This document shows, piece by piece, positions 5,327-32,792 of a stretch of 64,000 nucleotides of DNA; position 1 is the first letter of the stretch; each line of letters opens with the position of its first letter. The stretch comes from Acidimicrobiales bacterium (GTDB lineage: Bacteria; Actinomycetota; Acidimicrobiia; Acidimicrobiales; CATQHL01). The DNA lies in assembly GCA_965237375.1 (NCBI GenBank), contig CBDEFI010000006.1:418407-482406 (forward strand). Direction: 5' to 3'. A program made the translations under genes and the position numbers. The notes below the pieces were generated by a model. That model was not told where the DNA came from. It saw only the letters and a program-made list of their open reading frames with translations, and did not search any database.

Positions 5327-5465
5327 CGCTGGTCGCTCCACCGGTGGACGTAGCCGGCGTCCAGCGTCGTCGCGTCGAGGACGGCGAGATGGCCCCGTGG
5401 GTGAGGTGCTTCTGAGTGAATGTCCGCTTTGGGCGGTTTGATTAGCCCACGTTCGGGGTGGGGGG

Positions 5466-6509: not shown

Positions 6510-6841
6510 CGCTCTTTTCCCTCCAACAACGTGACCTTCACCGCCATCTCCTTGAGCGCCTCACCCAGCCGCGCCACCTCACCGCGGGCCATTGCCAACT
6601 CGGGATCCTCACCGCCCGCGCGCACCCCCGGCCGCGACGACGCCAACGCCTCCAGGGCGCCCCGCTTGGCCACCTCGCGGGCCTTCATGATCGTCGAACG
6701 ATCCACCCCCCAATGATCCGCGCACGCAGCGACGGTCATCTCACCGGTCAGCACCTGCACGAACGCCTCATACTTCTCCGCCGGCGACAAGAACCGCCGA
6801 CGGCGCCTGCCACGCTCACCGGACTTCGAAGAACTGCTCAT
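6500..6841 (-). CDS. IS3-family transposase OrfA (HTH)
   Basis: 113 aa: RRRRFLSPAEKYEAFVQVLTGEMTVAACADHWGVDRSTIMKAREV, followed by a leucine-zipper-like tail. Confidence 0.9.
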   Translation of the reverse strand: MSSSSKSGERGRRRRRFLSPAEKYEAFVQVLTGEMTVAACADHWGVDRSTIMKAREVAKRGALEALASSRPGVRAGGEDPELAMARGEVARLGEALKEMAVKVTLLEGKERWG

Positions 6842-17879: not shown

Positions 17880-19310
17880 GCCTGGATCCACCGGTGGGGT
17901 CTGGTCTGTGGGGGCTAGGGGTGCGCGGAAGTGCCTCGCTGACCTGGGAGAATAGCCGTTAGCAACAGCGGCTACGGCCCGAGTTCGGGAGGCACTTCCT
18001 GTGAGTGAAGTATCGCGCAAGATTGATCGGTTCGGGGTGGTTTTCGACGACGAGTCGTTGGTGGCCGATGCGGGCTTGTTGGCGGCGGGCACGCTGCTGA
18101 GCCGGTTGGGTGTGGCGGCGATCGTTGACCGTGTGGTGTGCCTGTCGGGGCGCGCGGGTGGGGCGGGTCCGGGTCGCAAGGTGGTGACGTTGGTGGCGGC
18201 GATGCTGGTGGGCGCGACGCACATCGATCACGCGAATCGGTTGCGCGCCGGCGCGACGCGGCGGGTGTTGGGGTTCACGGTGATGGCGCCGTCGACGTTG
18301 GGGACGTTCCTGCGTTCGTTCACGTGGGGTCACGTCCGCCAGTTGGACAAGGCGGCCGGCGAGGTGCTGCGCGCGGCGTGGTTGGTCAGCGGCGGCCCCG
18401 GGGAGGATGCGATGACCATCGACGTGGACTCGACGATCTGTGAAGTGGTCGGCAAGGCGAAGGCCGGCGCCGCCTACGGCTACACCGCCGAGTTGGGCTA
18501 TTGCCCGTTGGTGGCGACCCGCGGCGAGACCGGCGAGGTGCTGCATGCCCGCCTGCGCAAGGGGTCGGCCAGAGCGGCAACGCCCATTTCGTCGCCGAAA
18601 CCGTCCACCGCGCCCGACGCGCCGGCGCGACCGGCGAACTGACCGTGCGCGCCGACGCGGGGTTCTGGTCCTATGACCTCCTCGACACTCTGGAGCGCCT
18701 CAAGGTGCGCTGGTCGATCACGATGCCGCTGTACGCCCACGTCAAAGCCGCCATTGATGCCATTGCCGACGCGGACTGGACGCCGATCGACTATCGGCTC
18801 GGCGGCGAAGCGCACGTGGCGGCGACCACCCTCGTCGCCGGCGCCCGCGGCGAGGGGCGCAAGCTGCGCCTCGTGGTGCGCCGCAGCCGCCTCACCGACG
18901 AAACACAAGCGGCGTTATGGCCCGACTGGCGCTACCACGCCTTCGTCACCAACACCACATCTGACACCGTCGCCGCCGACGTGTTCCACCGCCAACACGC
19001 CACCGTCGAACTCGCCATTCGCGACCTCAAGAACTCCACCGGCCTCGCCCACCTGCCGTCGGGACGCTTCGCCGCCAACGCCGCCTGGCTGACCTGCGCC
19101 ACCCTGGCCCACAACCTCTACCGCTGGATCAACCACCACACCCCCAACCGCCGCGGCCGACTCACCGCCGGGCAAACCGTCCGCAACCAACTCCTCGCCC
19201 TCCCCGGACGCCTCGTCAACCACGCCGGACGCACCATCTTGCGCCTACCCGCCCACTGGCCCTGGGCGCCCACCTTCCACACCACCCTCACCAACATCCG
19301 CAACCTCCCC
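17880..19310 (+). mobile_element. IS1380-family element, copy B (abutted at its 3' end by IS3 type 1)
   Basis: Same sequence as copy A but without the nested IS3 type 2. The junction with IS3 type 1 (…caacctcccc|tgttctgg…) is identical in both copies. Confidence 0.8.
18001..19310 (+). pseudogene. IS1380-family transposase with an internal frameshift (~18560)
   Basis: ORFs 18001-18642 and 18501-19424 join into one IS1380-type protein only after a frame change following LHARLRKGSA. The C-terminal read-through enters IS3. Confidence 0.8.
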
Positions 19311-19398
19311 TGTTCTGGTTCTGAGTTCGTGTCCGGTTTTGGGTGGTTGATTAGCCCACATTGGGGGTGGGAGCGTGGCGTTGTGAAGGGAGCGTCAG

Positions 19399-19740
19399 AT
19401 GAGCAGTTCTTCGAAGTCCGGTGAGCGTGGCAGGCGCCGTCGGCGGTTCTTGTCGCCGGCGGAGAAGTATGAGGCGTTCGTGCAGGTGCTGACCGGTGAG
19501 ATGACCGTCGCTGCGTGCGCGGATCATTGGGGGGTGGATCGTTCGACGATCATGAAGGCCCGCGAGGTGGCCAAGCGGGGCGCCCTGGAGGCGTTGGCGT
19601 CGTCGCGGCCGGGGGTGCGCGCGGGCGGTGAGGATCCCGAGTTGGCAATGGCCCGCGGTGAGGTGGCGCGGCTGGGTGAGGCGCTCAAGGAGATGGCGGT
19701 GAAGGTCACGTTGTTGGAGGGAAAAGAGCGTTGGGGGTGA
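19399..19740 (+). CDS. IS3-family transposase OrfA
   Basis: Identical to the 6500-6841 product. Confidence 0.9.
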   Translation: MSSSSKSGERGRRRRRFLSPAEKYEAFVQVLTGEMTVAACADHWGVDRSTIMKAREVAKRGALEALASSRPGVRAGGEDPELAMARGEVARLGEALKEMAVKVTLLEGKERWG

Positions 19741-20774
19741 ACGCCGGCGTGCCCCCGCGTGTCGATGCCGGTGTCAAGGCCGCCTTGTTGGACCTCGTCG
19801 ATGGTGCCGTGGGCGAGGGTTGGGCGGCGTCTCGGGCGTGCGCTGTGTTGGAGTTGGATTCCCGCCGCTGGCGGCGGTGGCGGCACCGCCAGGCGGCCGG
19901 CCGCCTCGACGACAGCGCCGCCGGCGGCGGCGCTGTGCACGCCATCACGCCCGCCGAGCAGCAGGCGATCTTGGAGCTGTTCGACGCGTGGGGCGACATC
20001 GACGGCGGCTACCGCAAGCTCGCGCACCGCGCCTCCTATGAGGGGCTCGTGTGGGTGTCACCGTCGACGGTGTACCGCACCCTGGCAGGTCAGGGCCTTG
20101 TCCTACCCGCCCGGCCTCAGCGCAGTCCCGCTGCGGCGCGCCCGATGCCGGACTGGGTGCGCTGGGAACGCCACCAGATCTGGATCTATGACATCACCCA
20201 CTTCCCCCGCGCGAACCAGGTCGCCTACGCCATCTTGGACGTCGTTACCCGCAAATGGCTCGCCACCCTCGTCAGCGTCGAGGAGACCGCCACACAGGTC
20301 GAAGTCGTCTTCTGCGACGCGCTCGACGCCGAAGGACTCTGGGAACACATCGAGGCCCGCCAAGCCAACAGCGACGACGCCGAGCCGATCCTGCTGGCCA
20401 TGAGCGACAACGGCCCTCAAATGCGCGCCGGCACCACACGAGAGTTCTTCGCCATGTGCTCCATCGCCGCGCACTACGGCCGCCCCGGCACCCCGACTGA
20501 CCAAGCATGGATCGAAACGCTCTTCGGCCACATCAAAACCGAATGGCCCCACCTCGAACAAATCACCGACCCCAACACGCTGCGCACCGAACTCGACACC
20601 GTCCGCGACGACTACAACACCCGACGCCTGCACGCCTCCCTCCGCTACGTCACCCCCGACGACGAACACCAAGGACGTGGCGACACCATCCGCCAGGCCC
20701 GCCGCGACGGCCTCACCCGAGCCCGCCGCGACCGCATCGCCTACCATCGCAAAAACAAACCAACCCAGCCATGA
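19731..20774 (+). CDS. IS3-family transposase OrfB
   Basis: 347 aa, near-identical to the 5466-6509 product. Confidence 0.9.
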   Translation: MGVNAGVPPRVDAGVKAALLDLVDGAVGEGWAASRACAVLELDSRRWRRWRHRQAAGRLDDSAAGGGAVHAITPAEQQAILELFDAWGDIDGGYRKLAHRASYEGLVWVSPSTVYRTLAGQGLVLPARPQRSPAAARPMPDWVRWERHQIWIYDITHFPRANQVAYAILDVVTRKWLATLVSVEETATQVEVVFCDALDAEGLWEHIEARQANSDDAEPILLAMSDNGPQMRAGTTREFFAMCSIAAHYGRPGTPTDQAWIETLFGHIKTEWPHLEQITDPNTLRTELDTVRDDYNTRRLHASLRYVTPDDEHQGRGDTIRQARRDGLTRARRDRIAYHRKNKPTQP

Positions 20775-21107
20775 CCCCCCACCCCGAACGTGGGCTAATC
20801 AAACCGCCCAAAGCGGACATTCACTCAGAAGCACCTCACGTTCAGGGGGCGGTACGCCTAAGTTGCCGCCAGGTTGTTGGCGTCGGCCAGAATCCGTAGT
20901 CGATGACGGTGATGACCTCGCAGTCGGTGCTCATGTCGGCCCAGGCATCGGCACGGCCCATGCCGCCAAGGTGACGGACCAGTGATCCTCCCCGGGTCTT
21001 GCGCAGGCTGTGGTGTGCCCCGTGTTCCGCGCGGTCGGAGGTGAGCCCCGGGTTTCGCGCGGTCAGGTCATTTGATCGGTGGCGGAGGCGAGGGCACCCC
21101 TGAGACG

Positions 21108-21365
21108 CAGTTCCCACACTTGTTCCCACGCGGCGTGGCGGGAAACCTGACGCACAGCAGGCACGGGTAAGACCGCGTCAAGTCAAGCGCCGCTGTGACC
21201 TCGGAGTTCTGAGGCGTCATGGTGGCTCATGAGTCCGCATGGGGTCGCATGAGCGTCCAAAGTGGAGCTGGGGGGAATCACATCATCACGACAAAGACCT
21301 GGTCAGAGGGTATTCGGAGAGCAATCTCTGGACGACTTCCCACGCTTGTTCCCACGTGGTCTGGG
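21108..21365 (-). promoter_or_regulatory. attP-like / island-junction module (arm boxes - exact ssrA core - conserved arm - arm boxes)
   Basis: TTCCCAC pairs lie at 21111-21117/21123-21129 and 21337-21343/21349-21355, either side of the core at 21257-21279. The ~125 bp between core and left boxes is conserved with 27710-27830, 57460-57590 and 61470-61600. Confidence 0.6.
21257..21279 (-). repeat. Exact 23-nt inverted copy of the ssrA 3' end/flank (43692-43714)
   Basis: ccaaagtggagctggggggaatc is the reverse complement of gattccccccagctccactttgg. Confidence 0.95.
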
Positions 21366-21451: not shown

Positions 21452-21772
21452 GTGAGTACCGGGACTCGCCCACTGGGGCGCATGACCGTCTCCATTCCCG
21501 AGGAGCTACTCGACCGGTCCTTGCCCAAAGCGACCGGCGTCGTGCGGCTCCCCGGCCACATCGCGTGGAGCCCTCCCTACCAGTACGACCTGGCGGATCG
21601 TCGGGACCGCCGCGACGCCTACCAGCGGGTGATGACCGAGGGCCTCGCCGAGGACGTCGTGCACTTCATCGATGTTGACCAGGTCGTCGACATGTGGGAC
21701 GAACTGCATCTCTCGCCCCATGTCCGCGAGCCGTGGGAGCGCTGGCTGCGGGCCCGAGGGTTGCTTGACTAG
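21452..21772 (+). CDS. Small conserved hypothetical protein, paralog 1 of 3 (NTase-associated)
   Basis: 106 aa: IPEELLDRSLPKATGVVRLPGHIAWSPPYQYDLADRRDRRDAYQRVMTEGLAEDVVHFIDVDQVVDMWDELHLSPHVREPWERWLRARGLLD. Paralogs lie at 27097-27486 and 60534-60923. Confidence 0.7.
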   Translation: MSTGTRPLGRMTVSIPEELLDRSLPKATGVVRLPGHIAWSPPYQYDLADRRDRRDAYQRVMTEGLAEDVVHFIDVDQVVDMWDELHLSPHVREPWERWLRARGLLD

Positions 21773-22090
21773 CCGGACGGGGCTCGCTGCCCTGCAGCGG
21801 CGGATCTGGCGGATCGTCGGGGAACTCCCGCCTGGCACGAATCTCGCTCTCGTCGGTGGCGGCGCCCTCATCGTCTGCGAGGTCCTCGACCGGCCCACCA
21901 CCGACCTCGACTTCTTCGCCCCGTACCCCCGGCGGATCGACGAGGTGATCGGTCTCGTCCAGGGTGCCCTTGAGGCCGACGGGCTGCAGGTCACCCGCCT
22001 CGACGACAAACCCAGCTTCGCCAGACTCCGGATCGAGTCCGCGGAGGACACCACCACCGTCGATCTCGCCACCGACGCTCGTCTGATGGG
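21765..22090 (+). pseudogene. AbiEii-like nucleotidyltransferase, N-terminal fragment
   Basis: The TTG start overlaps the upstream stop. LQRRIWRIVGELPPGTNLALVGGGALIVCEVLDRPTTDLDFFAP...LEADGLQVTRLDD...TTVDLATDARL aligns with the 60530-59878 product. Similarity ends near 22090. Confidence 0.6.
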
Positions 22091-22166
22091 ATTTCTCCGA
22101 TCAGCGGAGGGATCATCGCCATCTGATCGGACCTCGCCGCCGAGCGCTATTCACGCTATTCATATG

Positions 22167-22904
22167 TCAAGGGATCCCGGGCTGTTCGGGAGTCGTGGGA
22201 GGTTCGGGCGGTATGCCGGCAGCGGCGCGCTGGCGGTGCAGTTCCTCCTCCACGTCGTGTGCCCGCCGCTTGAGGTAGGCGACGGTGACGTCGCGGGCGT
22301 CATCGAACAGCGGGTCGGCCTCACCGCCCGCAGGGAACCGCAATTTGAAGATCAGGTTGTCGAGGATTCCGCTGTCCAACTCGGGGCCGAAGCGCTGCCG
22401 GTAGTACCGGATGCCGTCTTCGAGGCGGTGCGCGGTGAGGCTGTCGATGGATGCGAGGTCCAGCAGGTCTCTGAGGTTGCTGCGCCAAAGCAGCGTGTCG
22501 AGTTTGAGGGCGAGGAGGTCCTCCAGTGACGCCACGGGCATTCCGCCGACGGTCGGCCCCCGTTGAATCGTTCGCGGTTCCTGCAACCGGTGTTCGGCCT
22601 GGGGATCTTCGAAGACGTGGACGCGCACGTCGTCGAGCAGCACCAGCACTTCGTGGCGGCTACGTGCCAGGGCGACGAAGGACGATTCCGCCGCCGCTTC
22701 GAGCCGGTCCCTGATCTCTGCGGTGTCGAACGGGCCGGGGGTCAGGATGTCGATGTCCTCGCTGCGGCGATGCCGCAGGTGGATGGCGATGGCTGTGCCG
22801 CCCACCAAGACGCCGCCGGTCCGGGAGGCGATTCGACCGGCTTTGGGCCACGCGGCACGCAGTCGGGCGTCGAGAACTTCCTCCCAGGCGTCGATGTCAG
22901 CCAC
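22167..22904 (-). CDS. Nucleotidyltransferase, AbiEii/AbiGii toxin-like
   Basis: GTG at 22904. Motifs: VLVGGTAIAIHLRHRRSEDIDILT and ...ASLEDLLALKLDTLLWRSNLRDLLDL. The 584-aa ORF-track version is an upstream read-through. Confidence 0.7.
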   Translation of the reverse strand: MADIDAWEEVLDARLRAAWPKAGRIASRTGGVLVGGTAIAIHLRHRRSEDIDILTPGPFDTAEIRDRLEAAAESSFVALARSRHEVLVLLDDVRVHVFEDPQAEHRLQEPRTIQRGPTVGGMPVASLEDLLALKLDTLLWRSNLRDLLDLASIDSLTAHRLEDGIRYYRQRFGPELDSGILDNLIFKLRFPAGGEADPLFDDARDVTVAYLKRRAHDVEEELHRQRAAAGIPPEPPTTPEQPGIP

Positions 22905-24163
22905 GGTGCGCCGCGGTGAGTTCTTGCACCGCCCTCTCCACGTCGGGGCCGCAGCCGGGTATGGCCGTCTGTGCCCCGAGGGGCGTCCAGCGGCAGGTGC
23001 CGCAGCGCCCAGCGCTTGGCATCGGGGTCCAGGAACCGGCCGTTCAGCAGCCGGTTGGCAACGAGGAGGGCATCGCGTGGCAGCCGGATGTCGGCGGGGT
23101 CGGGTCCCGACCAGAACAGGTGCCATAGATCCGCCGGCAGCCTCTCGGGACAGACGGCCCGGGGGGCGTGGCGCAGGCGGGGCAGATAGGGGCTCAACGC
23201 GTTGGCGCGTTCGGTGAGGCTCCAGATGCGTACCTGGCGGGTGCGGTGCCGCCACGGGATCGTCCGCACAGCCGACGCCACATAGCCGTCGCATGCCAAC
23301 CCGGCCAGGACGCGCTGGGAGTGACGGCGCGTAATCCCCGCGGTCTCGGCCAGCACCGCCGAGTCGGCGCCGTCCAGATAGGTGTGCAGCACCGTCAGCA
23401 CCAGCACTTCGGACTCGGTGATGTCCGGGCGCGGATGCGGCGGCGGCGCGACGGCCAGCTCCCACACCGGTCGCGGGGGTGTGAGCCACCGGTTCCGCCC
23501 AGCGGGCCTCGCCGGCAACCCGTCGTCGAGCCTCCGCCACCAATCCCCCAGGAGGCCGCCCCCAGCCTCCGACGGCGCTGCCTGTCCCGAGGGCAGCCCA
23601 CCCGCTCCGGGCGGCCGGCCGGGCAGCGATCCATCGCCTGAGCGGCCGCCCTGCCGCAGAATCCCCAGCACGCGCCCGGCAAGACGCTCTGGACGGTCGT
23701 AGGGACAGACGATCCCGCCGCAAGCCGCACGGAGACCCTCGGCTACGTCCCGGCTCGCCCCGGTGGTGATGCCGCAGGTCTCCCGCAGCGCCTCGGGTCG
23801 CACGACGAACGGTCCGTTGGTCGACAGCGCCACCCCCACAGCCCACGCCCGCAGCGGCGCCCGCCTCCTCTCCAGAGCGGTGCCGGTGCGTACGTTGAAG
23901 CGGCGCCGACACGACCCGCACCAGTAGCGGCCGTCAGGATCGGCCGCGCCACCGCGCGACGGTGTCGCGCACCTCGGGCAACCTGGCCCGTCCGGCCAGC
24001 GAACCCCCTCGAGCCACACCCGCGCCGCTCGCTCGTCGCCGAACGCGATCGCAGCATCCTCAACGGCAAACGGATAGCGAAGCGGCGCGGACTCCCGAAT
24101 GACCGGATCATACACGCGGTGCGCCATCAACCGCCAAGTCATGTCGCCTCGAAGCCGCAGCAC
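22742..24163 (-). CDS. Zn-ribbon (IS1595-transposase-type) + wHTH protein, putative AbiEi-like partner (3' end uncertain)
   Basis: N-terminus: ERAARVWLEGVRWPDGPGCPRCATPS...RYWCGSCRRRFNVRTGTALERRRAPLRAW. Middle: LTVLHTYLDGADSAVLAETAGITRRHSQRVLAGLACDGYV. The ORF overlaps the downstream NTase start by ~160 nt, so the true stop may be hidden by a frame error. Confidence 0.55.
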   Translation of the reverse strand: MLRLRGDMTWRLMAHRVYDPVIRESAPLRYPFAVEDAAIAFGDERAARVWLEGVRWPDGPGCPRCATPSRGGAADPDGRYWCGSCRRRFNVRTGTALERRRAPLRAWAVGVALSTNGPFVVRPEALRETCGITTGASRDVAEGLRAACGGIVCPYDRPERLAGRVLGILRQGGRSGDGSLPGRPPGAGGLPSGQAAPSEAGGGLLGDWWRRLDDGLPARPAGRNRWLTPPRPVWELAVAPPPHPRPDITESEVLVLTVLHTYLDGADSAVLAETAGITRRHSQRVLAGLACDGYVASAVRTIPWRHRTRQVRIWSLTERANALSPYLPRLRHAPRAVCPERLPADLWHLFWSGPDPADIRLPRDALLVANRLLNGRFLDPDAKRWALRHLPLDAPRGTDGHTRLRPRRGEGGARTHRGAPWLTSTPGRKFSTPDCVPRGPKPVESPPGPAASWWAAQPSPSTCGIAAARTSTS

Positions 24164-24776
24164 AGTTCTGCGGGATCACCGAATGCGGCCGAGTGCGGCG
24201 AGCACGATGTCGGTCGCGTGCAGCGTTTGCCACGCCGCCAGGGAGATGTCGCGGCGCTGCCGAAATCCAGAACAGGGCACGATTCGGGCGAGGCGCGGCG
24301 AGATGGTTTGAATCACCCGGGCCTGGTTGAGGCGCCGGTGTGCTCTGGTTTCGCGCGATCAGCTTGCTCGATCTCGGGCGGTGGTCCCGGTGTGACGAAG
24401 CGCGTACGCAACGACATCGAGCCAGCCCCGCCGGCGGCCCCACCCGCAGTTTCTCCTCGGGGCTCTTCTTCGATGCCTTCGCCATGCTCATCTCCTTACG
24501 TCAGACTCAAACCACCGCCTGAGCAAGAAACGATGACACGCGACAGGCTCAACCCTGACGCGACTGAACCCCGACTGATCGAAAGGCGCCGCCGGGCGGA
24601 GTTGAACGTTCCCCCTGCGCCCCGGTTCCCACGCGTCTTCCCACACAGGTCACCAGCCCTTGTGGGAGCGGGTCGAGTGGGCCTTGCCACCCCGCCCCAG
24701 CGCTCAGGCGAGGGGGCCGAGACCGAAACCGCCCAGCCGCCGCGAATCCTGGGGAGGTTGGCCGCGTTGGGGGTCG

Positions 24777-25184
24777 TCAGTTGTCCGAGGAGGGGTGTGA
24801 GGGTGGGGACAGCTCGCGCAGCAGGTTGGCGATCTCCTCGACGGCAAGGTCCTCGGCCGCCACGCGCATGACGAGTTCGTACACGTCGTGGTTGTGAGCC
24901 GCTGTCACGGAGGCTCCGTTGAGTTCGAGGAACACCGCTGTTGCGAGCCATCCCAGGCGCTTGTTGCCGTCGATGAGGGCGTGGTTGTTGACGACGGACT
25001 GCAACAACGCGGCCGACTTCGTCCAGGTGTCGGGATAGGCGTCGGTGCCGAACGCGTTGGCCTGCGGGCGCGCCGCCGCGGCGGTGAGCAGTCCGACATC
25101 GCGGACCGGGGGTGGATCTCCGAGCAGGCGGCGGGCGAGTTCGATCAGGTCGTCGGTGTCGAGGAACTCGACCGAACCGGTCAC
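24777..25184 (-). CDS. doc: Doc (death-on-curing) / Fic-family toxin
   Basis: 135 aa: VRDVGLLTAAAARPQANAFGTDAYPDTWTKSAALLQSVVNNHALIDGNKRLGWLATAVFLELNG. Confidence 0.85.
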   Translation of the reverse strand: MTGSVEFLDTDDLIELARRLLGDPPPVRDVGLLTAAAARPQANAFGTDAYPDTWTKSAALLQSVVNNHALIDGNKRLGWLATAVFLELNGASVTAAHNHDVYELVMRVAAEDLAVEEIANLLRELSPPSHPSSDN

Positions 25185-25390
25185 TCTCCCAGACGCCGCA
25201 GCGCCTCACCGTGGCGGCGCATCACCGACTCGGCCGCAGCGCCGACGCGGTCCTGATGATCGCGGCGCGCCACGAATTCGCGCACGGCGCGGCGGGCCGC
25301 CTCCTGCATCGATACGCCGTCGAGGGCGGCGCGCTCGCGCAGGGCATGGCGCTCCTCATCGGTCAGCCGCAACGTCATCGCCACACTCAT
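25181..25390 (-). CDS. RHH (Phd/CopG-like) antitoxin of Doc
   Basis: 69 aa: MTLRLTDEERHALRERAALDGVSMQEAARRAVREFV. It has a 4-nt overlap with doc. Confidence 0.8.
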   Translation of the reverse strand: MSVAMTLRLTDEERHALRERAALDGVSMQEAARRAVREFVARRDHQDRVGAAAESVMRRHGEALRRLGE

Positions 25391-25547: not shown

Positions 25548-26384
25548 CTAGATGTCGAGGCCGGATACCGCAGGGCCGGCAGCGGGGGAGTCCGGAGGTT
25601 CAACACCGCGGCCGAAGGCGGGCTCCTCGGACAGAGGCGCCCCTGGGAGCAGCGTGCGCAGCGTCAGCCTCGCCGCCCTTGAGGCCAGCGGGTCGAGGTC
25701 TTGCCAGACAGCGTGGTCGGGCGCCGCGATTTCCGCCACGCTCTGCAGCCGCGCCCGGTCTTTCCTCAAGAGCTGCGGCGCCAGCTCCGACGGGTCCGCT
25801 ACGAGGCTCAGCAGCAGGCCGAGATCGCCGAGTTGCACCTGCCGGTCGCGGTGCACGGGCACCGCGGCGGCCTTGCAGATGATCGCCCCCAACAACGAGG
25901 GCCGCGGTATGTGCCCCTGTGTGCCCGCGCACTCCACCGGGAGCAGCTCGGTGCGCGCAAGCGCCTGAGTCCCCCCGGGTACTTGAATCGTGCGGCCCGG
26001 CGGAGTGGTTGTCAGGTCGGCGCGGGCGCCGAGGCCTTCGGGCGCCAGCACGTCGATGACCGAGTGCCCGCGGGCGTAGCGATGAGCGATCCCGTCAGGG
26101 GATTCTCCCGCCAGTGTGAACCCGAGCGCCTCGACGAGGGCGACGAAGTCGCCCACAGCGCCGGCGACAATCCGAGCGTTGACGAGGATGTCGAGATCGG
26201 TCGACACGCGAGACGGCTCGGCGTCGTGCTCGAGGGCGTGCAGCAGGACCATCTGGCCGCCAATCAGGGTCCAGCCGTCGGGCTTGACGGCGGCGAGTTC
26301 GCACAACGTGGTCCAGATCTCGCCGGCCGGGCCGGGAGAAGCTGGCAACCGTAGAGGTGGGCCCGGGAGCCGCGGGACGTTCAC
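25548..26384 (-). CDS. Nucleotidyltransferase-fold protein (AbiEii-related, divergent)
   Basis: GTG at 26384 overlaps the upstream TGA (GTGA). Motif: WTLIGGQMVLLHALEHDAEPSRVSTDLDILVNA. Confidence 0.55.
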   Translation of the reverse strand: MNVPRLPGPPLRLPASPGPAGEIWTTLCELAAVKPDGWTLIGGQMVLLHALEHDAEPSRVSTDLDILVNARIVAGAVGDFVALVEALGFTLAGESPDGIAHRYARGHSVIDVLAPEGLGARADLTTTPPGRTIQVPGGTQALARTELLPVECAGTQGHIPRPSLLGAIICKAAAVPVHRDRQVQLGDLGLLLSLVADPSELAPQLLRKDRARLQSVAEIAAPDHAVWQDLDPLASRAARLTLRTLLPGAPLSEEPAFGRGVEPPDSPAAGPAVSGLDI

Positions 26385-27046
26385 AGGCGACCCAGCAGCT
26401 CGCCGCCAACCCGGCGCTCGCGAGCGTTGGGGGAATCTGCGAGATCCACGGCGACCACAGGCAGCGACGCAGCAGCGACCCCGGCCGGGAACGGCCAGCA
26501 GTCGTCCTGCACACTTCGCAGGCACACGTTGAAGGTGTCCGCACCTTCCTCCATCGGCACCTGCCTGAGCAGGTGTTCCAGCTCGCCGGCGCGGACATAG
26601 GCCTCGAGGGGCCCTGACCCGGCGAGGGCCAGGCCGTGTTCGGGAGCGGCGCTGGCCGCCGTGCGGACCACTCCGGGGCGGTCCGCTATCCGCGGGACCG
26701 CCGACGGGTGGGCGTAGAACCAGCGGATATGCGCGCGCTCCCTGAGTTGGTCGCGCAGCTCAGGCAGCCCGCGGGCGTAGCGCTCGCGGGCCCGAGAGCG
26801 CACAGCGGCAGTGCCGGCGGGATCCTCGCCGGCCGCCAATGCGAGGACCGCCCAAGCCGACGCGGCGCTCCAGGGTCGATGAGCAGGACGCCGCGTCCGG
26901 CCGGCCACGCGCACCGAATGCTCGTCGAGCACCCACACACCGCCGACACGCTGACCCGCCAACATGCCATTGGAGAGCATCTGCCGCACACGGCGCGGAC
27001 TCACCCCAAGCTCGGCGGCCGCCGACGTCACGCTCAGCAACACCAT
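26381..27046 (-). CDS. Excisionase-type HTH protein with AbiEi-like C-terminal domain (putative antitoxin)
   Basis: ATG at 27046. Motif: LSVTSAAAELGVSPRRVRQMLSNGMLAGQRVGGVWVLDEHSV. It is translationally coupled to the NTase gene. Confidence 0.55.
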   Translation of the reverse strand: MVLLSVTSAAAELGVSPRRVRQMLSNGMLAGQRVGGVWVLDEHSVRVAGRTRRPAHRPWSAASAWAVLALAAGEDPAGTAAVRSRARERYARGLPELRDQLRERAHIRWFYAHPSAVPRIADRPGVVRTAASAAPEHGLALAGSGPLEAYVRAGELEHLLRQVPMEEGADTFNVCLRSVQDDCWPFPAGVAAASLPVVAVDLADSPNARERRVGGELLGRL

Positions 27047-27096
27047 GTCTAAAGCATACCGATAGCGGTCGCGTTCCGCGACCTCAACAGCGGCCT

Positions 27097-27486
27097 CTAG
27101 TCGAGCAGCTTGTGGGTCCGCAGCCAGCGCTCCCACGGCGCTCGGATGTGCGGCGACAGATGCAGCTCGCCCCACATGGCCCCGACCTCGTCGACGTCGA
27201 TGAACCACAGAACGTCCTCGTCGAGGCCCTCAGTCATCACCCGCTCATAGGCGCGGCCGCGCTGCTGGCGGTCCCCCAGGTCGTACTCCCACGGCGGCGA
27301 CCAGACGACGTGGGGCGGCAGGCGCACCACCCCGGAGGCCTTCGGGCGCGAACGGTCCAACAGGCCCTCGGGGATCTTCGCCGGCGACCGTGTCAACATG
27401 CGCGTCGGCGACACCGTCGACGGATGCGGCCCACCCTCGGGGAACCATTCCTCTGGGGTCATGCTCGGCGGCGCCGGGAGTTCCAT
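27097..27486 (-). CDS. Small conserved hypothetical protein, paralog 2 of 3
   Basis: MTPEEWFPEGGPHPSTVSPTRMLTRSPAKIPEGLLDRSRPKASGVVRLPPHVVWSPPWEYDLGDRQQRGRAYERVMTEGLDEDVLWFIDVDEVGAMWGELHLSPHIRAPWERWLRTHKLLD. It lies 50 nt upstream of the HTH gene. Confidence 0.7.
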   Translation of the reverse strand: MELPAPPSMTPEEWFPEGGPHPSTVSPTRMLTRSPAKIPEGLLDRSRPKASGVVRLPPHVVWSPPWEYDLGDRQQRGRAYERVMTEGLDEDVLWFIDVDEVGAMWGELHLSPHIRAPWERWLRTHKLLD

Positions 27487-27684
27487 GCACGGAGGGTACC
27501 CACCGGCCCTGACAGGCGGCCTAGACCTCTGCGTCAGACGCTCGACCTCGGCGGCACCTCACCCGCGGCTAGCTTGCTCGATACCGGGCAGTGGTTGAGG
27601 ATCGCACGAGATTGGTGTGCCCTGGGTTTCGCGCTGTCAGGTCGCTTGATTTTGGACGGCGCTGAGCCCTACGACGAAACGCAC

Positions 27685-27922
27685 TTCCCACATCTCTACC
27701 CACACGGGATGGCGTGATGGCTGACGCACAGCAGGCACGGATGCAACCGTGTCAAATGAAGCGCCGCTATGACCTCGTAGTTCTGGGTCTTCACGGCAAC
27801 TCATGAGTGCCCATGGGGTCGCATGAGCGCTCGGAGTGGGGTGTTAGCGAGTACCTCTGACCAGCACCTTCGCCGCAGCGGCTGGAGACCTCCACATTTT
27901 GAAGGGGTAGGTCTCCACATTT
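27685..27922 (-). promoter_or_regulatory. Island-junction module (degenerate core, two kinds of arm repeats)
   Basis: TTCCCAC/TACCCAC lie at 27685-27691/27697-27703. Conserved arm: ...gcgccgctatgacctcg...catggggtcgcatgagcgctcggagtggggtgttagc. CTCCACATTT lies at 27890-27899 and 27913-27922 (23-nt period). Confidence 0.5.
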
Positions 27923-28999: not shown

Positions 29000-29859
29000 T
29001 GCGACCAGAAGAACTCACCCCTGTCGCGGTGTTAGCGCGTGATCGTGTCCAGCATTTCATCGTGACGGCGATCGCAGACCGTCAAGCGGCGCGCAGGCGG
29101 CTGGTATTCAAAGGGGGCACCTTGTTGCGCTCATGCTGGCACCTGGACTACCGCTACTCCGAAGACCTCGACTTCGACTGGGTTACCAACCCAGAGGAGA
29201 CTAGGGAAGACCTCGGGCTGTTCCTGCGATCTGTACTCAGGGACGCATCTCGAGCCTCAGGGGTTGATCTTGCATTTCGCGACCGCCGTGGGCGGCTAGC
29301 GGTCACATGGGCAGCACCTGATGGGCCGTCAGGTGTCATCAGTCTGGACGTGAACCGGCGGATCCACGAGAACTACACCCCCGCGATCCGTGACTGGCAC
29401 GTCTACCAGCGGTATCCGGATCTAACCACAGACACACCGATTAGCGGTTACACGCTGGAAGCCGTTATGGCGGGCAAACTGGACTGCCTTGCTGAGCCCG
29501 CCCGCTTGGCCCCACGCGACTTCTTTGATGTACACGAGTTGCTCAAGTCGAGGCAGGTAGACACCTCGGGGGCCATAGAAGCGTTCATGCAGCTACGGCA
29601 TCCAAGCACAGATACTAGGCCGGGCCTAGATGAGCTTCACGAGCACCTCCTGACGCCCGGCTACGAGCATTACGCCGACCTAGTGTCGGAGTGGTCGAAG
29701 AGCGTCGCCAAAGGTCTAGTGAGTTCGACCCATCGCGATTTCAGCCCCATCTTTGACGCTGTCGATACGATGCTCGGCGAGGTGATTACGCAGGCGATCG
29801 AACGTCCTCCGGAGCCGGAACCCCCTAAACGGCCAGTTCTAGTGGTCACTGCACGGTGA
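28999..29859 (+). CDS. AbiEii-family nucleotidyltransferase toxin (C-terminus altered by IS30 insertion)
   Basis: LVFKGGTLLRSCWHLDYRYSEDLDFDW...GYTLEAVMAGKLDCLAEPARLAPRDFFDVHELL. The last ~10 codons and the stop lie inside the IS30 terminal repeat (from 29830). Confidence 0.8.
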   Translation: MRPEELTPVAVLARDRVQHFIVTAIADRQAARRRLVFKGGTLLRSCWHLDYRYSEDLDFDWVTNPEETREDLGLFLRSVLRDASRASGVDLAFRDRRGRLAVTWAAPDGPSGVISLDVNRRIHENYTPAIRDWHVYQRYPDLTTDTPISGYTLEAVMAGKLDCLAEPARLAPRDFFDVHELLKSRQVDTSGAIEAFMQLRHPSTDTRPGLDELHEHLLTPGYEHYADLVSEWSKSVAKGLVSSTHRDFSPIFDAVDTMLGEVITQAIERPPEPEPPKRPVLVVTAR

Positions 29860-30892
29860 GGGCATGGTACAGCTCTGCTGGGCTGTGGTAGTGGAGGCTG
29901 CGTCGGCGTTGGTTGTTGATGATGGCGGCGGCGTGTTCTGCTTGTGCGGGGGTGATGAGGCGCAGGTCGGTGCCGCGGGGGAACCACCAGCGCCATTGGC
30001 GGTTGAGGTTCTCGATCTGGCCGCGTTGCCACGGCGAGTGCGGGTCGCAGAACCACACGTCGAGGTCGTAGTGGTCGGCGAGGCGGCGCCAGTGCGCCCA
30101 TTCGGGTCCCTGGTCGAACGTGAGGCTGCGGCGCAGGTGGGCGGGGATGCCGTCGAGGCCTTCGACGAGGCCGGCGAAGGCCGCGTCGGCGGTGTAGCCG
30201 TCGGGCATGGTGACCGGTATGGAGAACCTCGTGGTGCGTTCGGTGAGCCAGATCATCGAGGACCGGTTGTTGGCGCCGATGATCTGGTCTGCTTCCCAGT
30301 GACCGGCCTCGGCGCGGTCGTTCACCGCCGCCGGGCGCAGCGATATGTTCGGCCCGCCGGGCCGCGACCGGGGGTTTCGCCGCTGTCGGCAGCGCCGGCG
30401 CCGGCGGCGGCTGCGCAGACACGCAGCGGGGCGCACGTCGAGGACCCCGGCGTAGAGCGCCTGGTAGATGGTCTCGACGCACGGCCGGCCGGCGACGCCG
30501 TCCGCGTCGAGGTCGGCGCGGATCGCCTCGGGGGAGCGCCCCTGGCGCAACTCGGCGCAGATACGGTCGCGCAGCTCGCCGGGAACCTCCAGGCGCCGCC
30601 GCCGCGGCCGCCGACGCGACCGCTCGGCGCGCCGCTGCGCCGTCGCCGGGCGGTACCGGTCACGGTCGCCGCCCGCTGTGACCTCCCGGGCGACCGTCGA
30701 CCGATGACGGCCAACCCGCCGGGCGATCGCCGCCCAACTCGCCGCCGGATCCTCAATCAACGCAACAGCGATCTCCTCGCGTTCGTGCAACGCCAGCGGT
30801 GCGCCTGGCATGCTGGTACCTCCATCGGTCGGTGCTTGTGTTGGCACCGGTCATCATGACCGGAACCGTGCACCGACCGATGGAACTGGCCG
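29830..30892 (-). mobile_element. IS30-family element, copy 1 (1063 bp)
   Basis: IRs are CGGCCAGTTCTAGTGGTCACTGCACGG / CGGCCAGTTCCATCGGTCGGTGCACGG. A second copy lies at 53962-55024. Confidence 0.9.
29846..30847 (-). CDS. IS30-family transposase
   Basis: 333 aa: HEREEIAVALIED...GHWEADQIIG...LTFDQGPEWAHW...VWFCDPHSPWQRGQIENLNRQWRWWFPRGTDL. Confidence 0.9.
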   Translation of the reverse strand: MPTQAPTDGGTSMPGAPLALHEREEIAVALIEDPAASWAAIARRVGRHRSTVAREVTAGGDRDRYRPATAQRRAERSRRRPRRRRLEVPGELRDRICAELRQGRSPEAIRADLDADGVAGRPCVETIYQALYAGVLDVRPAACLRSRRRRRRCRQRRNPRSRPGGPNISLRPAAVNDRAEAGHWEADQIIGANNRSSMIWLTERTTRFSIPVTMPDGYTADAAFAGLVEGLDGIPAHLRRSLTFDQGPEWAHWRRLADHYDLDVWFCDPHSPWQRGQIENLNRQWRWWFPRGTDLRLITPAQAEHAAAIINNQRRRSLHYHSPAELYHALTVQ

Positions 30893-31283
30893 AGGGCGCT
30901 ATCTCGTTGGAGATGGTGATCACGCAGTCATGACCCTCGGTCCGGGCTAAGTCCAGGTACGCGTTGATCTGATCGGCATCAAGCTTCGCGAGTCCCGTCT
31001 TGACTTCGACGAGCGCTTCAAATGTCGCCCGGTTACCAACGCTGACCCTTATGAGGCCGTCCGGCCGAAGGGTCTTGTCCCCAGCATCGTAGGAAGGCTC
31101 CACAAACGCCTCCACGCGAGCGGTCTTGGCGCGTGTGCAGCCCAACGGCGCGAGCAACGTCGCACTGAGTGGCCTGACAATGCTCAGAACGGCTAGCAGC
31201 GCCGAGGTGGCCCGCTTCTCCGCCTCCCGTTGTCCTGTGATACCCGACACCGGTATCAGTCGTGCGGCCTCAGGTTCGCTCAT
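30893..31283 (-). pseudogene. PD-(D/E)xK-like protein, N-terminal 130 aa, truncated by IS30
   Basis: MSEPEAARLIPVSGITGQREAEKRATSALLAVLSIV...RPDGLIRVSVGNRATFEALVEVKTGLAKLDADQINAYLDLARTEGHDCVITISNEIAP. The reading frame runs into the IS30 end at 30892. Confidence 0.55.
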
Positions 31284-31705
31284 GTCGATCCCCTCGTGTG
31301 CTCTGTGCAGCCCGTCACCAAAGTCGAATGCGGTTTCGTGCTTCCACTGCGCTGAGCCCTTGAACATGGCCGCAGTGCAACCGGCAGAAACAGACTATGG
31401 CAGGAGCTTCGCAGAAGCAGGTCGAGATTTGGGCAGGTATCCCGACAACATGTGAGAGCGTGCGCCGTGCACGACCACACCGCCCTGCGGCGCTGCCGAT
31501 GGGTCCCCCAGAGGACATCGGTGCTATCCCGCCGCATTGCCCAGTTGAGGGCGACTCGCGAACCCTCTGGGCTGGCGAAGCGAGTCGTTAAGGTCTCCCC
31601 TAATCTCGTGGAAGTGCCCCGCCGGAGAGAGGGCGGCCACGGGTCGCGGGCACCGTATTGGCGAAGGTAGGTCGGCCACCCGATCGCGGGCTCCGGTTGC
31701 GTCTG

Positions 31706-32677
31706 CTAGTTGTGCATGCTGGGGACGTTGTCCCCGAGGGTTGAGGCTGGTGTTTTCCAGCCGAGCGCTCCGTGGGTTCGGTGGCAATTGTAGTAGTGGA
31801 GGAAGCCCTGGTAGGCGTTGGCGCGTTCGGTTTCGCTTCCCCAGGGGCGGATGTAGGCCCATTCCTCGAGGAGGATGCGGTGGAAGCGTTCGACTTTGCC
31901 GTTGGTCTGGGGCCGGTAGGGGCGGGTTTTCTTGACCTTCGTTGCGGTGCGTTTGCAGGCTTTGTGCCAGTCTTTGGACCGGTAGCAGCCGCCGTTGTCG
32001 GTGAGCACGCGTTCGCAGGTCACGCCCCAGGTGGCGAACCAGGCGTGGGCGCGCAACCAGAATTCTGCGGCCGTTGGGCCACACTCGTCGTCGAGGTGCT
32101 CGCTGTAGACCAGGCGGCTGCGGTCGTCGAGGGCGGTGTGCAGGTAGCGGTAGCCGACCTTGGCGCCCGGCGTGGGGGCGTTGCCGCGTCCGTGGACCCT
32201 CCAGCCGCCGCCGGGAGGGATGGCGGGCAGCTTCTTGATGTCCACATGGACGAGTTCACCAGGCCTTTCGCGCTGATAGCGCACCGGCGCCGGTTTGGTG
32301 GCGCGGTCGCCGCGGTCGAGGCGCCCCAGGCCGGCGTCGGCGAGGATCTTCTGCGCCGTGGACGGCGCCACGCCGACCCTGTGGGCGATCCAGCCGGCGC
32401 CGCGGCGCCGACAGCGACGCAGGCGGATCACCTCGGCGCGCACCTCCGGCGGTGTACGCCCCGGGCTGCGGCGCGGCCGGCTGGAGCGGTCCAACAGACC
32501 GTCGGGTCCTTCCGCGAGGTAGCGGTCGCGCCACTTGCGCACCGTCTTGGGGTCCACCTGGAACCGCTCCGCGGTCGCCGCGACACCCCAGCCCTCCACA
32601 ATCAGCACATCAACCATCCGCCGCCGCATCGCCGGCGTCAGCTTCGCGTTCAGATGCTGGGTCCTAACCTGTGCCAT
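31706..32677 (-). CDS. IS481-family transposase
   Basis: 323 aa: HVDIKKL...YLHTALDDRSRLVYSE...LTDNGGCY...RPYRPQTNGKVERFHRILLEEW. The last codon and the stop lie in the flanking CTAG. Confidence 0.9.
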   Translation of the reverse strand: MAQVRTQHLNAKLTPAMRRRMVDVLIVEGWGVAATAERFQVDPKTVRKWRDRYLAEGPDGLLDRSSRPRRSPGRTPPEVRAEVIRLRRCRRRGAGWIAHRVGVAPSTAQKILADAGLGRLDRGDRATKPAPVRYQRERPGELVHVDIKKLPAIPPGGGWRVHGRGNAPTPGAKVGYRYLHTALDDRSRLVYSEHLDDECGPTAAEFWLRAHAWFATWGVTCERVLTDNGGCYRSKDWHKACKRTATKVKKTRPYRPQTNGKVERFHRILLEEWAYIRPWGSETERANAYQGFLHYYNCHRTHGALGWKTPASTLGDNVPSMHN

Positions 32678-32792
32678 GAGCCCTCCTTGCGGGGTGTGAG
32701 CTGGTTACTTGCCCACAGCATCGCCGGAGGGCTCACCTCAACGGTGAACCCTCAATCCCATCCACCCAGGGACAACCTCCCCGGTTGTCACA
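31711..32792 (-). mobile_element. IS481-family element, copy 1 (1082 bp)
   Basis: IRs are TGTGCATGCTGGGGACGTTGTCCCC / TGTGACAACCGGGGAGGTTGTCCC. The left flank is CTAG-type (ctgCTAGt). There is no matching repeat on the right flank. Confidence 0.9.

What the first reader, a model, noticed from the sequence alone, without database searches (positions are those of the whole stretch)
22167..24163. NTase toxin-like gene paired with an unusual Zn-ribbon + wHTH protein
The upstream partner of the AbiEii-like NTase (22167-22904) begins with a transposase-type zinc ribbon (RWPDGPGCPRC...YWCGSCRRRFNVRTGT). It continues into a wHTH-like segment and then a C-terminal region (PDPADIRLPRDALLVANRLLNGRF). 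Its ORF overlaps the NTase start by ~160 nt with no stop near the junction. This suggests either a genuine long overlap or a frame error. A domesticated IS1595-type Zn-ribbon fused to an AbiEi-like regulator is not a standard AbiE architecture.
Basis: partly seen in the sequence, partly recalled or inferred. Interest (0 to 1): 0.55.

Follow-up and report, generated by a model that had tools for sequence, protein, structure and literature searches.

The report
AbiE-like toxin pair, transposase-derived partner
This is a two-gene nucleotidyltransferase toxin cassette whose partner protein carries a DNA-binding head borrowed from an IS1595 transposase; the odd 160-base gene overlap comes from one extra base, and the partner belongs to a conserved family I found no description of, which databases label 'transposase'.

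Summary
On the minus strand, 22167-22904 encodes an AbiEii/DUF1814 nucleotidyltransferase with all catalytic motifs. The upstream ORF begins with an IS1595-type zinc ribbon and contains a MarR-like winged helix.

The 160-nt overlap is not biological. The window has one extra base near 22974-22985 that six related loci lack. Removing it gives a 414-aa protein ending in a TGA at 22897-22899, which overlaps the NTase GTG by 8 nt, as in the orthologues. Whether this is an assembly error or a real mutation cannot be decided here.

The partner is not an AbiEi (COG5340) homologue: it gives no AbiEi Pfam or PADLOC match, and its C-terminal domain is all-alpha. Its layout is:
- an IS1595 transposase N-terminal module (zinc ribbon plus HTH, no DDE domain)
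- a disordered linker
- a wHTH
- a C-terminal domain distantly related to DUF6922

The wHTH+CTD core has 163 cluster representatives. They occur bare, with an excisionase-type HTH, or with the zinc ribbon. In 19 of the 20 species-representative loci scanned (16 full-length), and in all but one of the other loci inspected, the gene sits directly upstream of an AbiEii gene.

Most likely it is the autorepressor and antitoxin of an AbiE/MenAT-like system. This is a new variant of a known kind and of moderate interest.

The parts
22897..24163 (-). Upstream partner gene (putative antitoxin and autorepressor), read with the frame corrected. Candidate starts are GTG 24163, ATG 24142 (the start called for orthologue P0001), ATG 24127 and GTG 24115. 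The stop is TGA 22897-22899. From 24142, with one base removed, the protein is 414 aa.
   Evidence: Orthologues of 385-421 aa end at the same place with a 4-8 nt overlap onto the NTase start (L001, L002, L009).
23669..24076 (-). N-terminal module homologous to the N-terminus of IS1595-family transposases. It comprises the zinc ribbon (CPRC...CGSC, 23903-24040) and the helical HTH-like segment that follows. There is no DDE catalytic domain.
   Evidence: Pfam PF12760. tblastn against plasmids found 307 records, annotated IS1595 family transposases, E down to 7e-12, covering 76-99% of the 136 aa. The four Cys are invariant. The model shows a ribbon plus helices at pLDDT about 80.
23456..23650 (-). 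G/P/S-rich linker of variable length, predicted disordered. The window is 21 nt (7 aa) shorter here than L001, L014 and L015.
   Evidence: pLDDT below 50 for residues 165-236 of the P0001 model. Alignment gaps. In-frame 21-nt indel at 23617.
23216..23431 (-). MarR/IclR-like winged helix-turn-helix.
   Evidence: MarR_2 or HTH_IclR hits in homologues. Second model pLDDT 94.7. Foldseek top hits are MarR-family regulators: ZitR, Rv1404, PcaV, MepR.
22897..23161 (-). All-alpha C-terminal domain (LPxDLWHLFWSGPDPADIRLPRDALLVANRLLNGR...WALRxLPLDAL...). It is the family signature, is distantly related to Pfam DUF6922, and is interrupted in the window by the frameshift.
   Evidence: Invariant columns. 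Model helices. DUF6922 hits in 8 of 80 relatives, best 3e-9, always on this segment. No PDB fold match beyond the wHTH.
22974..22985 (-). Site of the window-specific single-base insertion. The minus strand reads GCCCCTCGGGGCAC where relatives read GCCCTCCGGGCAC. It causes the frameshift.
   Evidence: Alignments against L001, L002, L009, L014, L015 and L016.
22742..22896 (-). Out-of-frame tail of the 473-aa ORF, lying inside the NTase gene. It is a by-product of the frameshift, not conserved coding sequence.
   Evidence: No homologue shares this tail. The chance of such a stop-free run at this G+C content is about 0.24.
22167..22904 (-). AbiEii/DUF1814-family nucleotidyltransferase (putative toxin), 245 aa as it stands with a GTG start. 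A second window-specific extra G at 22176-22178 changes only the last residues (PGIP* instead of PGSLDI*; 247 aa when corrected).
   Evidence: PF08843 at 51.9 bits. Weak PADLOC AbiEii hits. 47 homologues. Alignment A7. Indels.
22749..22802 (-). NTase motifs I-II: GGTAIAIHLRHRRSEDID. These are G35/G36, R46, S48, D50 and D52. S48 sits at the position of the AbiEii T65 phosphoacceptor.
   Evidence: Invariant in A7. Translation. Motif definitions in PMC3985639. T65 and the R63/D67/D69 context in bioRxiv 10.64898/2026.01.19.700257 and PMC3985639.
22458..22505 (-). NTase motifs III-IV: KLDTLLWRSNLRDLLD (K134, R141, R145-D146-x-x-D149).
   Evidence: Invariant in A7. Translation. Definitions KLxAaxxR and +DxxD.
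24164..24240 (-). 5' flank that travels with the cassette. It is about 96% identical to L001 and L014, and homology stops at about 24240. It is the presumed promoter/operator region and contains a small palindrome, CCGCAG-N7-CTGCGG, at 24155-24173.
   Evidence: The function is inferred only.

Best explanation
The locus is a bicistronic AbiE/MenAT-type cassette.

The downstream gene encodes a DUF1814 (AbiEii-family) nucleotidyltransferase. By analogy with AbiEii and the MenT toxins, it would arrest growth through nucleotidyl transfer (described for tRNA acceptor ends in the MenT toxins).

The upstream gene encodes its cognate partner, which has three DNA-binding or interaction modules on one chain:
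1. An N-terminal zinc ribbon plus HTH taken from an IS1595-family transposase, without the DDE catalytic domain.
2. A disordered linker of about 65 aa, then a MarR-like wHTH.
3. An all-alpha C-terminal domain specific to this family and distantly related to DUF6922.

I infer that the wHTH, helped by the transposase-derived head, represses the cassette's own promoter. I also infer that the C-terminal domain neutralises the NTase, possibly by the antitoxin-induced autophosphorylation shown for AbiEii, MenT1 and MenT3. The acceptor would be the invariant Ser48 in R-x-S-x-D-x-D.

The two genes are translationally coupled: the TGA of the first overlaps the GTG of the second (GTGGCTGA). The 473-aa ORF and its 160-nt overlap arise from one extra base in a short C/G run at about 22974-22985. 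That base is either an assembly error or a recent inactivating mutation.

What is shown: domain content, the frameshift, the conserved pairing and the motif conservation. What is inferred: toxicity, neutralisation, autoregulation and the role of each module.
For: Domains:
- PF12760 and PF08843 hits.
- IS1595 transposase N-terminal homology across the whole 136-aa head.
- MarR-like fold.
- High-confidence wHTH+CTD model, pLDDT 94.7 and pTM 0.83.

Frameshift:
- One extra base relative to six related loci.
- The third frame restores the orthologous C-terminus and an 8-nt stop/start overlap.

Pairing:
- L001, L002, L003/4 and L009/10 all have the partner followed by AbiEii with a 4-8 nt overlap.
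- Of 20 species-representative loci, 16 have a full AbiEii directly downstream.
- A distant AbiEii (37% identity) also follows a Zn_ribbon_IS1595 protein, which is 31% identical to P0001 over wHTH+CTD.
- The HTH_17-headed form P0130 and two short gene calls that hold the CTD (P0229, P0234; not checked for longer upstream ORFs) also sit directly upstream of AbiEii.
- Identities of the two proteins fall in parallel across clades.

Decay pattern typical of toxin-antitoxin pairs:
- The NTase is lost or truncated while the partner gene stays intact in L022/L005, L019 and L025.

NTase integrity:
- All invariant positions of motifs I-IV are kept.

Autonomy:
- In the sister clade, homology begins at a conserved upstream element of about 75 nt. 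This has the inverted repeat GGCGACAC/GTGTCGC and a TAGGGT 7 nt before the GTG. Homology ends at the NTase stop, whatever the flanks.
Against: - No experiment or complex model links the C-terminal domain to the NTase.
- No AbiEi, PADLOC or NCBIfam model matches the partner.
- The C-terminal domain has no solved structural relative in the searches that were available.
- The window protein itself does not reach DUF6922 even at E<=1.
- The inverted repeat of the sister-clade upstream element is degenerate in the window's clade, and part of that element lies inside the window's annotated N-terminus. Start codon and operator are therefore uncertain here.
- If the frameshift is real, this copy has a damaged partner beside an apparently intact toxin. 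That would be unexpected for an active toxin.
- One bare-form relative (L011) is followed only by a 75-aa ORF.
Confidence: 0.72

Rival explanations
1. The frameshift is a real mutation, so this copy is a decaying or pseudogenised cassette rather than a mis-assembled intact one. The partner would lose the last ~26 residues of its C-terminal domain, gain an 80-aa nonsense tail and lose translational coupling.
For: Both single-base indels in the 2.4-kb block are unique to the window. Related copies do decay: L016 has an internal deletion, ATG to ATA, and an NTase frameshift; L019 and L025 have NTase remnants. The locus sits in a zone rich in IS elements and repeats.
Against: Both extra bases are added G's in short G-runs, which is the commonest assembly error. 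Another 1.1-kb block shared with L001 shows no single-base indel. The NTase keeps every invariant residue, which would be hazardous beside a dead antitoxin. No read data are available.
Confidence: 0.45
2. The 160-nt overlap is genuine and functional: a 473-aa protein is made whose C-terminal extension is encoded within the NTase gene.
For: The ORF is open in the sequence as given.
Against: No homologue has this tail. All homologues end 75-80 residues earlier with a conserved C-terminus, which the window still encodes in another frame. The tail has the composition of an off-frame reading, and such a run is expected about 24% of the time at this G+C.
Confidence: 0.03
3. The upstream gene is a remnant of an IS1595 insertion sequence and its position next to the NTase is coincidental.
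For: PF12760 hit, homology to transposase N-termini, and NCBI names of 'transposase' for relatives. The neighbourhood is IS-rich.
Against: There is no DDE domain, and 250 further residues form a conserved wHTH+CTD unrelated to transposases. Pairing with AbiEii holds across clades down to 31-37% identity. The sister clade has no terminal inverted repeat at the far end of the cassette. No plasmid or viral copies were found.
Confidence: 0.02
4. The pair is a regulator plus a regulated nucleotidyltransferase with a non-toxic role, such as a modification or resistance enzyme. The partner would be only a transcription factor, not an antitoxin.
For: Toxicity is untested. The partner has two or three DNA-binding modules. 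Dy et al. note that not all DUF1814 genes are linked to antitoxins.
Against: Stop/start overlaps are tight. The partner survives when the NTase is lost, but the reverse was not seen. All AbiEii toxicity-critical motifs are retained. The cassette lies among other toxin-antitoxin pairs such as Fic/Doc-RHH.
Confidence: 0.12

Closest known systems
AbiE (AbiEi-AbiEii) of Streptococcus agalactiae / Lactococcus, and MenA3-MenT3 and MenA4-MenT4 of M. tuberculosis (COG5340-COG2253 pairs)
   Same: A bicistronic operon in which a wHTH-containing two-function partner sits directly upstream of a DUF1814 NTase. The NTase has motifs I-IV, with a Ser at the phosphoacceptor position in R-x-[ST]-x-D-x-D.
   Different: The partner is not COG5340/AbiEi. 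No AbiEi Pfam or PADLOC model matches. The wHTH is MarR/IclR-like and sits in the middle of the protein. The C-terminal domain is all-alpha, whereas AbiEi is described with a loop joining helix alpha6 to strand beta4. An IS1595-derived zinc-ribbon head and a long disordered linker are added. The spacing between motifs I and II is 13 residues, against 15 in AbiEii.
IS1595-family transposases (N-terminal zinc ribbon plus HTH, Pfam PF12760)
   Same: The first ~136 residues are homologous over nearly their whole length, at 29-37% identity, with four invariant Cys.
   Different: There is no DDE_Tnp_IS1595 domain and no terminal inverted repeats. The rest of the protein is a wHTH plus a toxin-associated domain.
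Pfam DUF6922 (PF21956), an uncharacterised 52-residue family
   Same: The first half of the C-terminal domain (FWxxFWSG...LRLPxDAxxVAxRL) matches DUF6922 in 8 of 80 relatives, best E 3e-9, always at that position.
   Different: The window protein and its close orthologues do not reach the model even at E<=1. Most relatives score below the gathering cut-off. No function or literature exists for DUF6922.
COG4861/AbiEi_2-type and MenA1/SanaA-type partners of DUF1814 toxins
   Same: They are further examples of DUF1814 toxins recruiting unrelated upstream partners, some with a wHTH.
   Different: No AbiEi_2 hit appeared in any Pfam scan. I did not make a direct profile comparison with COG4861.

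Membership tests
AbiEii / DUF1814 nucleotidyltransferase toxin (PF08843) | Pfam PF08843 match above the gathering score | tested here: met
   51.9 bits against a cut-off of 22.5, E 1.3e-13, residues 32-237. PADLOC AbiEii models hit only weakly, E 1e-4.
AbiEii / DUF1814 nucleotidyltransferase toxin (PF08843) | Motifs I-II, hG[G/S]-x(n)-DhD, with an Arg inside motif II (PMC3985639) | tested here: met
   VGG35-36 ... R46-R-S48-E-D50-I-D52, invariant in 19 aligned homologues. The spacing is 13, not 15.
AbiEii / DUF1814 nucleotidyltransferase toxin (PF08843) | Motif III (KLxAaxxR) and motif IV (+DxxD) | tested here: met
   K134-L-D-T-L-L-W-R141 and R145-D146-L-L-D149. K134, R141, R145, D146 and D149 are invariant. 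The inner positions of motif III differ from the consensus.
AbiEii / DUF1814 nucleotidyltransferase toxin (PF08843) | Growth-inhibiting NTase activity relieved by the upstream gene product | not testable with these tools
   Inferred from family membership and gene order only.
AbiEi / COG5340 antitoxin | Match to the AbiEi profiles (Pfam AbiEi_1, AbiEi_3/_3_N, AbiEi_4) or to PADLOC AbiEi models | tested here: not met
   No hit for the window protein or P0001 at E<=1. Only 4 of 80 distant relatives touch AbiEi_4, the wHTH part, at E 2e-3. PADLOC gave 0 families.
AbiEi / COG5340 antitoxin | N-terminal wHTH followed by a C-terminal region containing beta-strands, with an acidic loop between helix alpha6 and strand beta4 that enters the toxin active site (PDB 6Y8Q; bioRxiv 10.64898/2026.01.19.700257) | tested here: not met
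AbiEi / COG5340 antitoxin | Encoded directly upstream of, and co-inherited with, a DUF1814 NTase | tested here: met
   This is a functional analogy, not homology.
IS1595-family transposase | N-terminal zinc ribbon (PF12760) plus the adjacent HTH | tested here: met
IS1595-family transposase | DDE catalytic domain (DDE_Tnp_IS1595) | tested here: not met
   No such hit in the window protein or in the 16 clade homologues at E<=1, nor among the 25 most frequent families listed for 80 wider relatives at E<=0.01.
IS1595-family transposase | Terminal inverted repeats bounding the element | tested here: not met
   In the sister clade, homology ends at the NTase stop and no inverted copy of the left-end motif lies within 400 nt downstream.
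DUF6922 (PF21956) | Match to the Pfam model at or above the gathering score of 27 bits | tested here: inconclusive
   The window protein and P0001 give no hit. Relatives reached by the family profile hit in 8 of 80 cases, best E 3e-9. P0130, P0142 and P0179 score 19-21 bits on the C-terminal domain.

The most novel reading that the evidence does not exclude
The wHTH plus all-alpha C-terminal domain family is a previously unrecognised third class of cognate partner for DUF1814/AbiEii toxins, structurally unrelated to COG5340 and COG4861. In one lineage it has captured the DNA-recognition head of an IS1595 transposase. The cassette's repressor/antitoxin would then read transposase-type DNA sites, coupling toxin control to IS1595 activity or IS-end-like operators. 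That would be a direct regulatory link between a toxin-antitoxin module and a transposon family.
Probability: 0.15. Interest if true: 0.65.

Novelty: new variant of a known kind. Interest (0 to 1): 0.4.

Why it matters
DUF1814/AbiEii/MenT toxins are being re-described as systems in which the antitoxin triggers toxin autophosphorylation. All mechanistic work so far uses COG5340-type partners or MenA1.

This is a conserved, structurally different partner family: 163 cluster representatives, with three alternative N-terminal heads. It offers a test of whether the same neutralisation logic can be reached with a different fold. It is also a clear case of a transposase DNA-binding module being reused as part of a regulator.

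There is a practical consequence too. These genes are named 'transposase' in NCBI records, and PF12760 is used as a transposase marker in at least one pipeline. They are therefore likely to be counted as mobile elements. The cassette may also be missed by AbiE detection, because PADLOC has no model matching the partner.

For this window specifically, the striking feature (the long overlap) is a single-base problem that should be checked in the reads before any annotation.

Tried and rejected
1. AbiEi homology: no profile, PADLOC or fold support.

2. Solved-structure relatives by sequence: none for the NTase. For the partner, only generic wHTH matches and a spurious sarcosine oxidase hit.

4. 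Short 303-323-aa homologues 'lacking' the zinc ribbon: in the one case inspected (P0031) this is a truncated gene call. The ORF in L003 continues upstream in frame through the ribbon.

5. A non-autonomous IS1595-derived mobile element carrying the pair: no right-end inverted repeat, and homology stops at the NTase stop.

6. Plasmid or phage carriage: no relatives of the wHTH+CTD in PLSDB or IMG/VR.

7. Relation of the neighbouring small ORF 21452-21772 and the HTH_17 protein 26381-27208 to this family: hhalign found none beyond a generic HTH.

8. Identifying the source genome: no species-representative locus is identical; the best is 96.7%.

9. Programmed frameshifting: rejected, because all six compared loci (L001, L002, L009, L014, L015, L016) lack the extra base and read straight through this site.

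10. Literature: no paper combines AbiEii with a zinc ribbon, and none mentions DUF6922.
Full report
**What is in the sequence**

Two minus-strand ORFs occupy the interval. The first is 22742-24163 (473 aa). The second is a long ORF whose conserved part starts at GTG 22904 and ends at 22167 (245 aa).
- The downstream protein matches Pfam AbiEii (PF08843) at 51.9 bits against a cut-off of 22.5.
- The upstream protein matches only Zn_ribbon_IS1595 (PF12760), at 27.0 bits against 25.4, residues 42-87. It matches nothing in NCBIfam.
- The Zn-ribbon hit is marginal alone but solid in context. 14 of 16 homologues hit it, best 7e-11, and the four cysteines are invariant in 23 full-length homologues.

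**The overlap is a frameshift**

A search of 5.8 billion proteins found 36 clusters of homologues, mostly 385-421 aa, covering only about 80% of the 473-aa query. In the alignment the window ORF follows them up to '...RHLPLDA' and then diverges. All the others continue 'L(R/V)AQTGIPGCP..VE.AV.EL' and stop.

The window still encodes that C-terminus in the third frame. Positions 22897-22977 translate to GAQTAIPGCGPDVERAVQELTAAHRG*.

DNA alignment with the 96%-identical contig L001 shows one extra base in the window. It reads GACGCCCCTCGGGGCAC where L001 reads GACGCCCTCC-GGGCAC. The same gap appears against L009 and L002 and against L014, L015 and L016.

Removing one base gives a 414-aa protein from ATG 24142. 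Its TGA (22897-22899) overlaps the NTase GTG (22904) as GTGGCTGA. This is the arrangement found in L001 (8-nt overlap), L002 (4 nt) and L009 (8 nt).

Across the 2.4-kb block shared with L001 there are 75 substitutions and only three indels:
- an in-frame 21-nt indel in the linker;
- the frameshifting extra base;
- a second window-specific extra G at 22176-22178, which changes only the last NTase residues (PGIP* against PGSLDI*).

Both single-base events add a G to a G-run. That is typical of assembly error but also of slippage, and I cannot decide between them. At 71% G+C a stop-free 80-codon run in a wrong frame has a chance of about 0.24, so the long tail carries no information.

**Anatomy of the partner**

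AlphaFold on 23 homologues gave these parts:
- a structured head (residues about 25-160);
- a disordered G/P/S-rich linker (165-236);
- a wHTH (245-316);
- a helical C-terminal domain (335-419).

*Head.* The head is more than a zinc ribbon. Its 136 residues align by tblastn with annotated IS1595-family transposases in 307 plasmid records, at 29-37% identity over 76-99% of the query, with E down to 7e-12. No DDE domain is detected.

**The family**

A profile of wHTH plus C-terminal domain, searched against 1.84 billion representatives, found 163 proteins at E<=1e-3. They fall into three architectures:
- with the IS1595 zinc-ribbon head (about 300-345 aa; the window's clade is about 385-420 aa because of the linker);
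- with an excisionase/MerR-type HTH_17 head (about 230-245 aa);
- bare (about 170-215 aa).

Pfam sees generic wHTH families in these proteins, Zn_ribbon_IS1595 in 19 of 80 and HTH_17 in 12 of 80. It sees DUF6922 in 8 of 80 (best 3e-9), always on the first half of the C-terminal domain. AbiEi_4 appears only in 4 of 80, at E 2e-3.

PADLOC has no model for the partner. NCBI names members 'transposase' or 'MarR family'. I found no paper on DUF6922 or on an AbiEii partner with a zinc ribbon.

**Association with the NTase**

- The NTase has its own set of 47 homologues, whose identities fall in parallel with those of the partner.
- A scan of one genome per species found 20 loci, all in Acidimicrobiia MAGs such as Ca. 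Poriferisocius and Ca. Aldehydirespiratoraceae.
- With HMMs of both proteins, 16 of the 20 have a full-length AbiEii homologue starting within a few bases of the partner's stop. One is cut by a contig end.
- In L019 and L025 only an NTase remnant is left, and in L022 (the same locus as L005) none is left, while the partner is intact. In L016 both genes are damaged. I did not see an intact NTase beside a lost partner. That asymmetry is what toxin-antitoxin logic predicts.
- The link holds at greater distance. An AbiEii 37% identical to the window's is preceded by a 329-aa Zn_ribbon_IS1595 protein that is 31% identical over wHTH plus C-terminal domain.
- An HTH_17-headed member is followed by AbiEii with an 8-nt overlap. 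Two short gene calls holding only the C-terminal domain abut AbiEii genes.
- One bare member is followed only by a 75-aa ORF.
- The 306-aa homologue P0031, which seemed to lack the ribbon, is a truncated gene call.

**The NTase**

The window protein keeps every invariant column of a 19-sequence alignment: G35, G36, R46, S48, D50, K134, R141, R145, D146 and D149. D52 completes the DID triplet. These correspond to motifs I-IV, whose mutation abolishes AbiEii toxicity (PMC3985639).

S48 occupies the position of T65 in R63-x-T65-x-D67-x-D69 of AbiEii. T65 is the residue autophosphorylated on AbiEi binding and is equivalent to MenT3 S78 (bioRxiv 10.64898/2026.01.19.700257). A phosphorylation-based neutralisation is therefore plausible, but it is pure inference here.

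**Regulatory region**

In the sister clade, unrelated flanks give way to a conserved element of about 75 nt. It reads TTGGCGACAC-N-AGTTTGCGGCGCA-N-GTGTCGC...GGGGGTAGGGT, followed 7 nt later by the GTG start. This looks like an operator plus a -10 box for a leaderless transcript. Homology ends at the NTase stop and there is no downstream inverted copy. The cassette is therefore a self-contained two-gene unit and not an IS.

In the window's clade the equivalent sequence is degenerate and partly lies inside the annotated N-terminus. The true start (24163, 24142, 24127 or 24115) is therefore uncertain. The 77 nt upstream of 24163 are shared with L001 and L014, and homology then stops.

**Verdict**

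The puzzling overlap is a one-base frame problem.

The interesting residue is the partner. It belongs to a conserved family that is not AbiEi and that I found no description of. It combines a MarR-like wHTH and a DUF6922-like helical domain, and in this lineage it carries a domesticated IS1595 transposase DNA-binding head.

By context it is the regulator and antitoxin of an AbiE/MenAT-like NTase toxin, which makes it a new variant of a known kind. A specialist would find it a useful addition rather than a surprise, because antitoxins are known to be modular.

The neighbourhood is a patchwork of other toxin-antitoxin-like pairs, IS copies and repeats.

Noticed in passing
window 24777-25390 (-): A Fic/Doc-family protein (24777-25184, PF02661, E 1e-13) is preceded by a 69-aa ribbon-helix-helix protein (25181-25390) with a 4-nt overlap. 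This is a second toxin-antitoxin-type pair immediately upstream of the cassette. A related pair lies on L001 and L016.
   Followed up: partly
window 25548-27208 (-): A 325-aa ORF has an NTase-like GG...S.D.D signature but no Pfam hit. It overlaps a 275-aa HTH_17 protein by about 145 nt. This is another long overlap, so it may also reflect a mis-called start or a frame problem. hhalign shows no relation to the family studied beyond the HTH.
   Followed up: partly
window 21452-22110 (+); paralogous DNA at 27097-27501 and 60312-60938: A 106-aa ORF is followed by an N-terminal AbiEii-like fragment (weak PF08843, E 1.4e-3), convergent with and abutting the AbiEii gene's 3' end. Its DNA has two diverged paralogues (73-85%) elsewhere in the window. 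L001 calls a 139-aa gene at the matching place.
   Followed up: partly
window 5401-7900 and 18340-20839: A 2.5-kb inverted duplication at 99.3% identity carries an integrase-core-like transposase ORF (19731-20774). It lies just beside the toxin-antitoxin cluster.
   Followed up: no
window 29829-30893 / 53961-55025, and 31703-32792 / 58787-59876: There are two further repeated blocks. The first (90% identity) matches a gene with HTH_38 and rve domains (IS30-like, my reading) on L009. The second is 98.9% identical between its copies.
   Followed up: no
window 41617-43196: A degenerate tandem array with a period of about 111 nt, 63-72% identity between units, spans about 1.6 kb. It may encode a repeat protein.
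   Followed up: no
window 21038-21273, 27614-27922, 57372-57683, 61455-61648; L001 8451-8757: A dispersed element of about 200-300 nt, 76-87% identical between copies, is also present on the related contig L001. Its nature is unknown.
   Followed up: no
L018-L033, about 80 nt upstream of the partner gene: A conserved upstream element has the inverted repeat GGCGACAC/GTGTCGC, and a TAGGGT 7 nt before the GTG start, which suggests a leaderless transcript and an operator. Homology begins exactly there whatever the flanks.
   Followed up: partly
L005/L022, L019, L025, L016: Related genomes show a decay series of the cassette: an orphan partner gene with no NTase (L022), NTase remnants (L019, L025), and a copy with an internal deletion, a lost start codon and an NTase frameshift (L016).
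   Followed up: yes
L006 5040-6631; L034 361-5199: Near distant AbiEii homologues there is a DarT-Macro (DarTG-like) pair (L006). One 6-kb stretch holds three AbiEii genes (L034), suggesting NTase-toxin islands in these MAGs.
   Followed up: no
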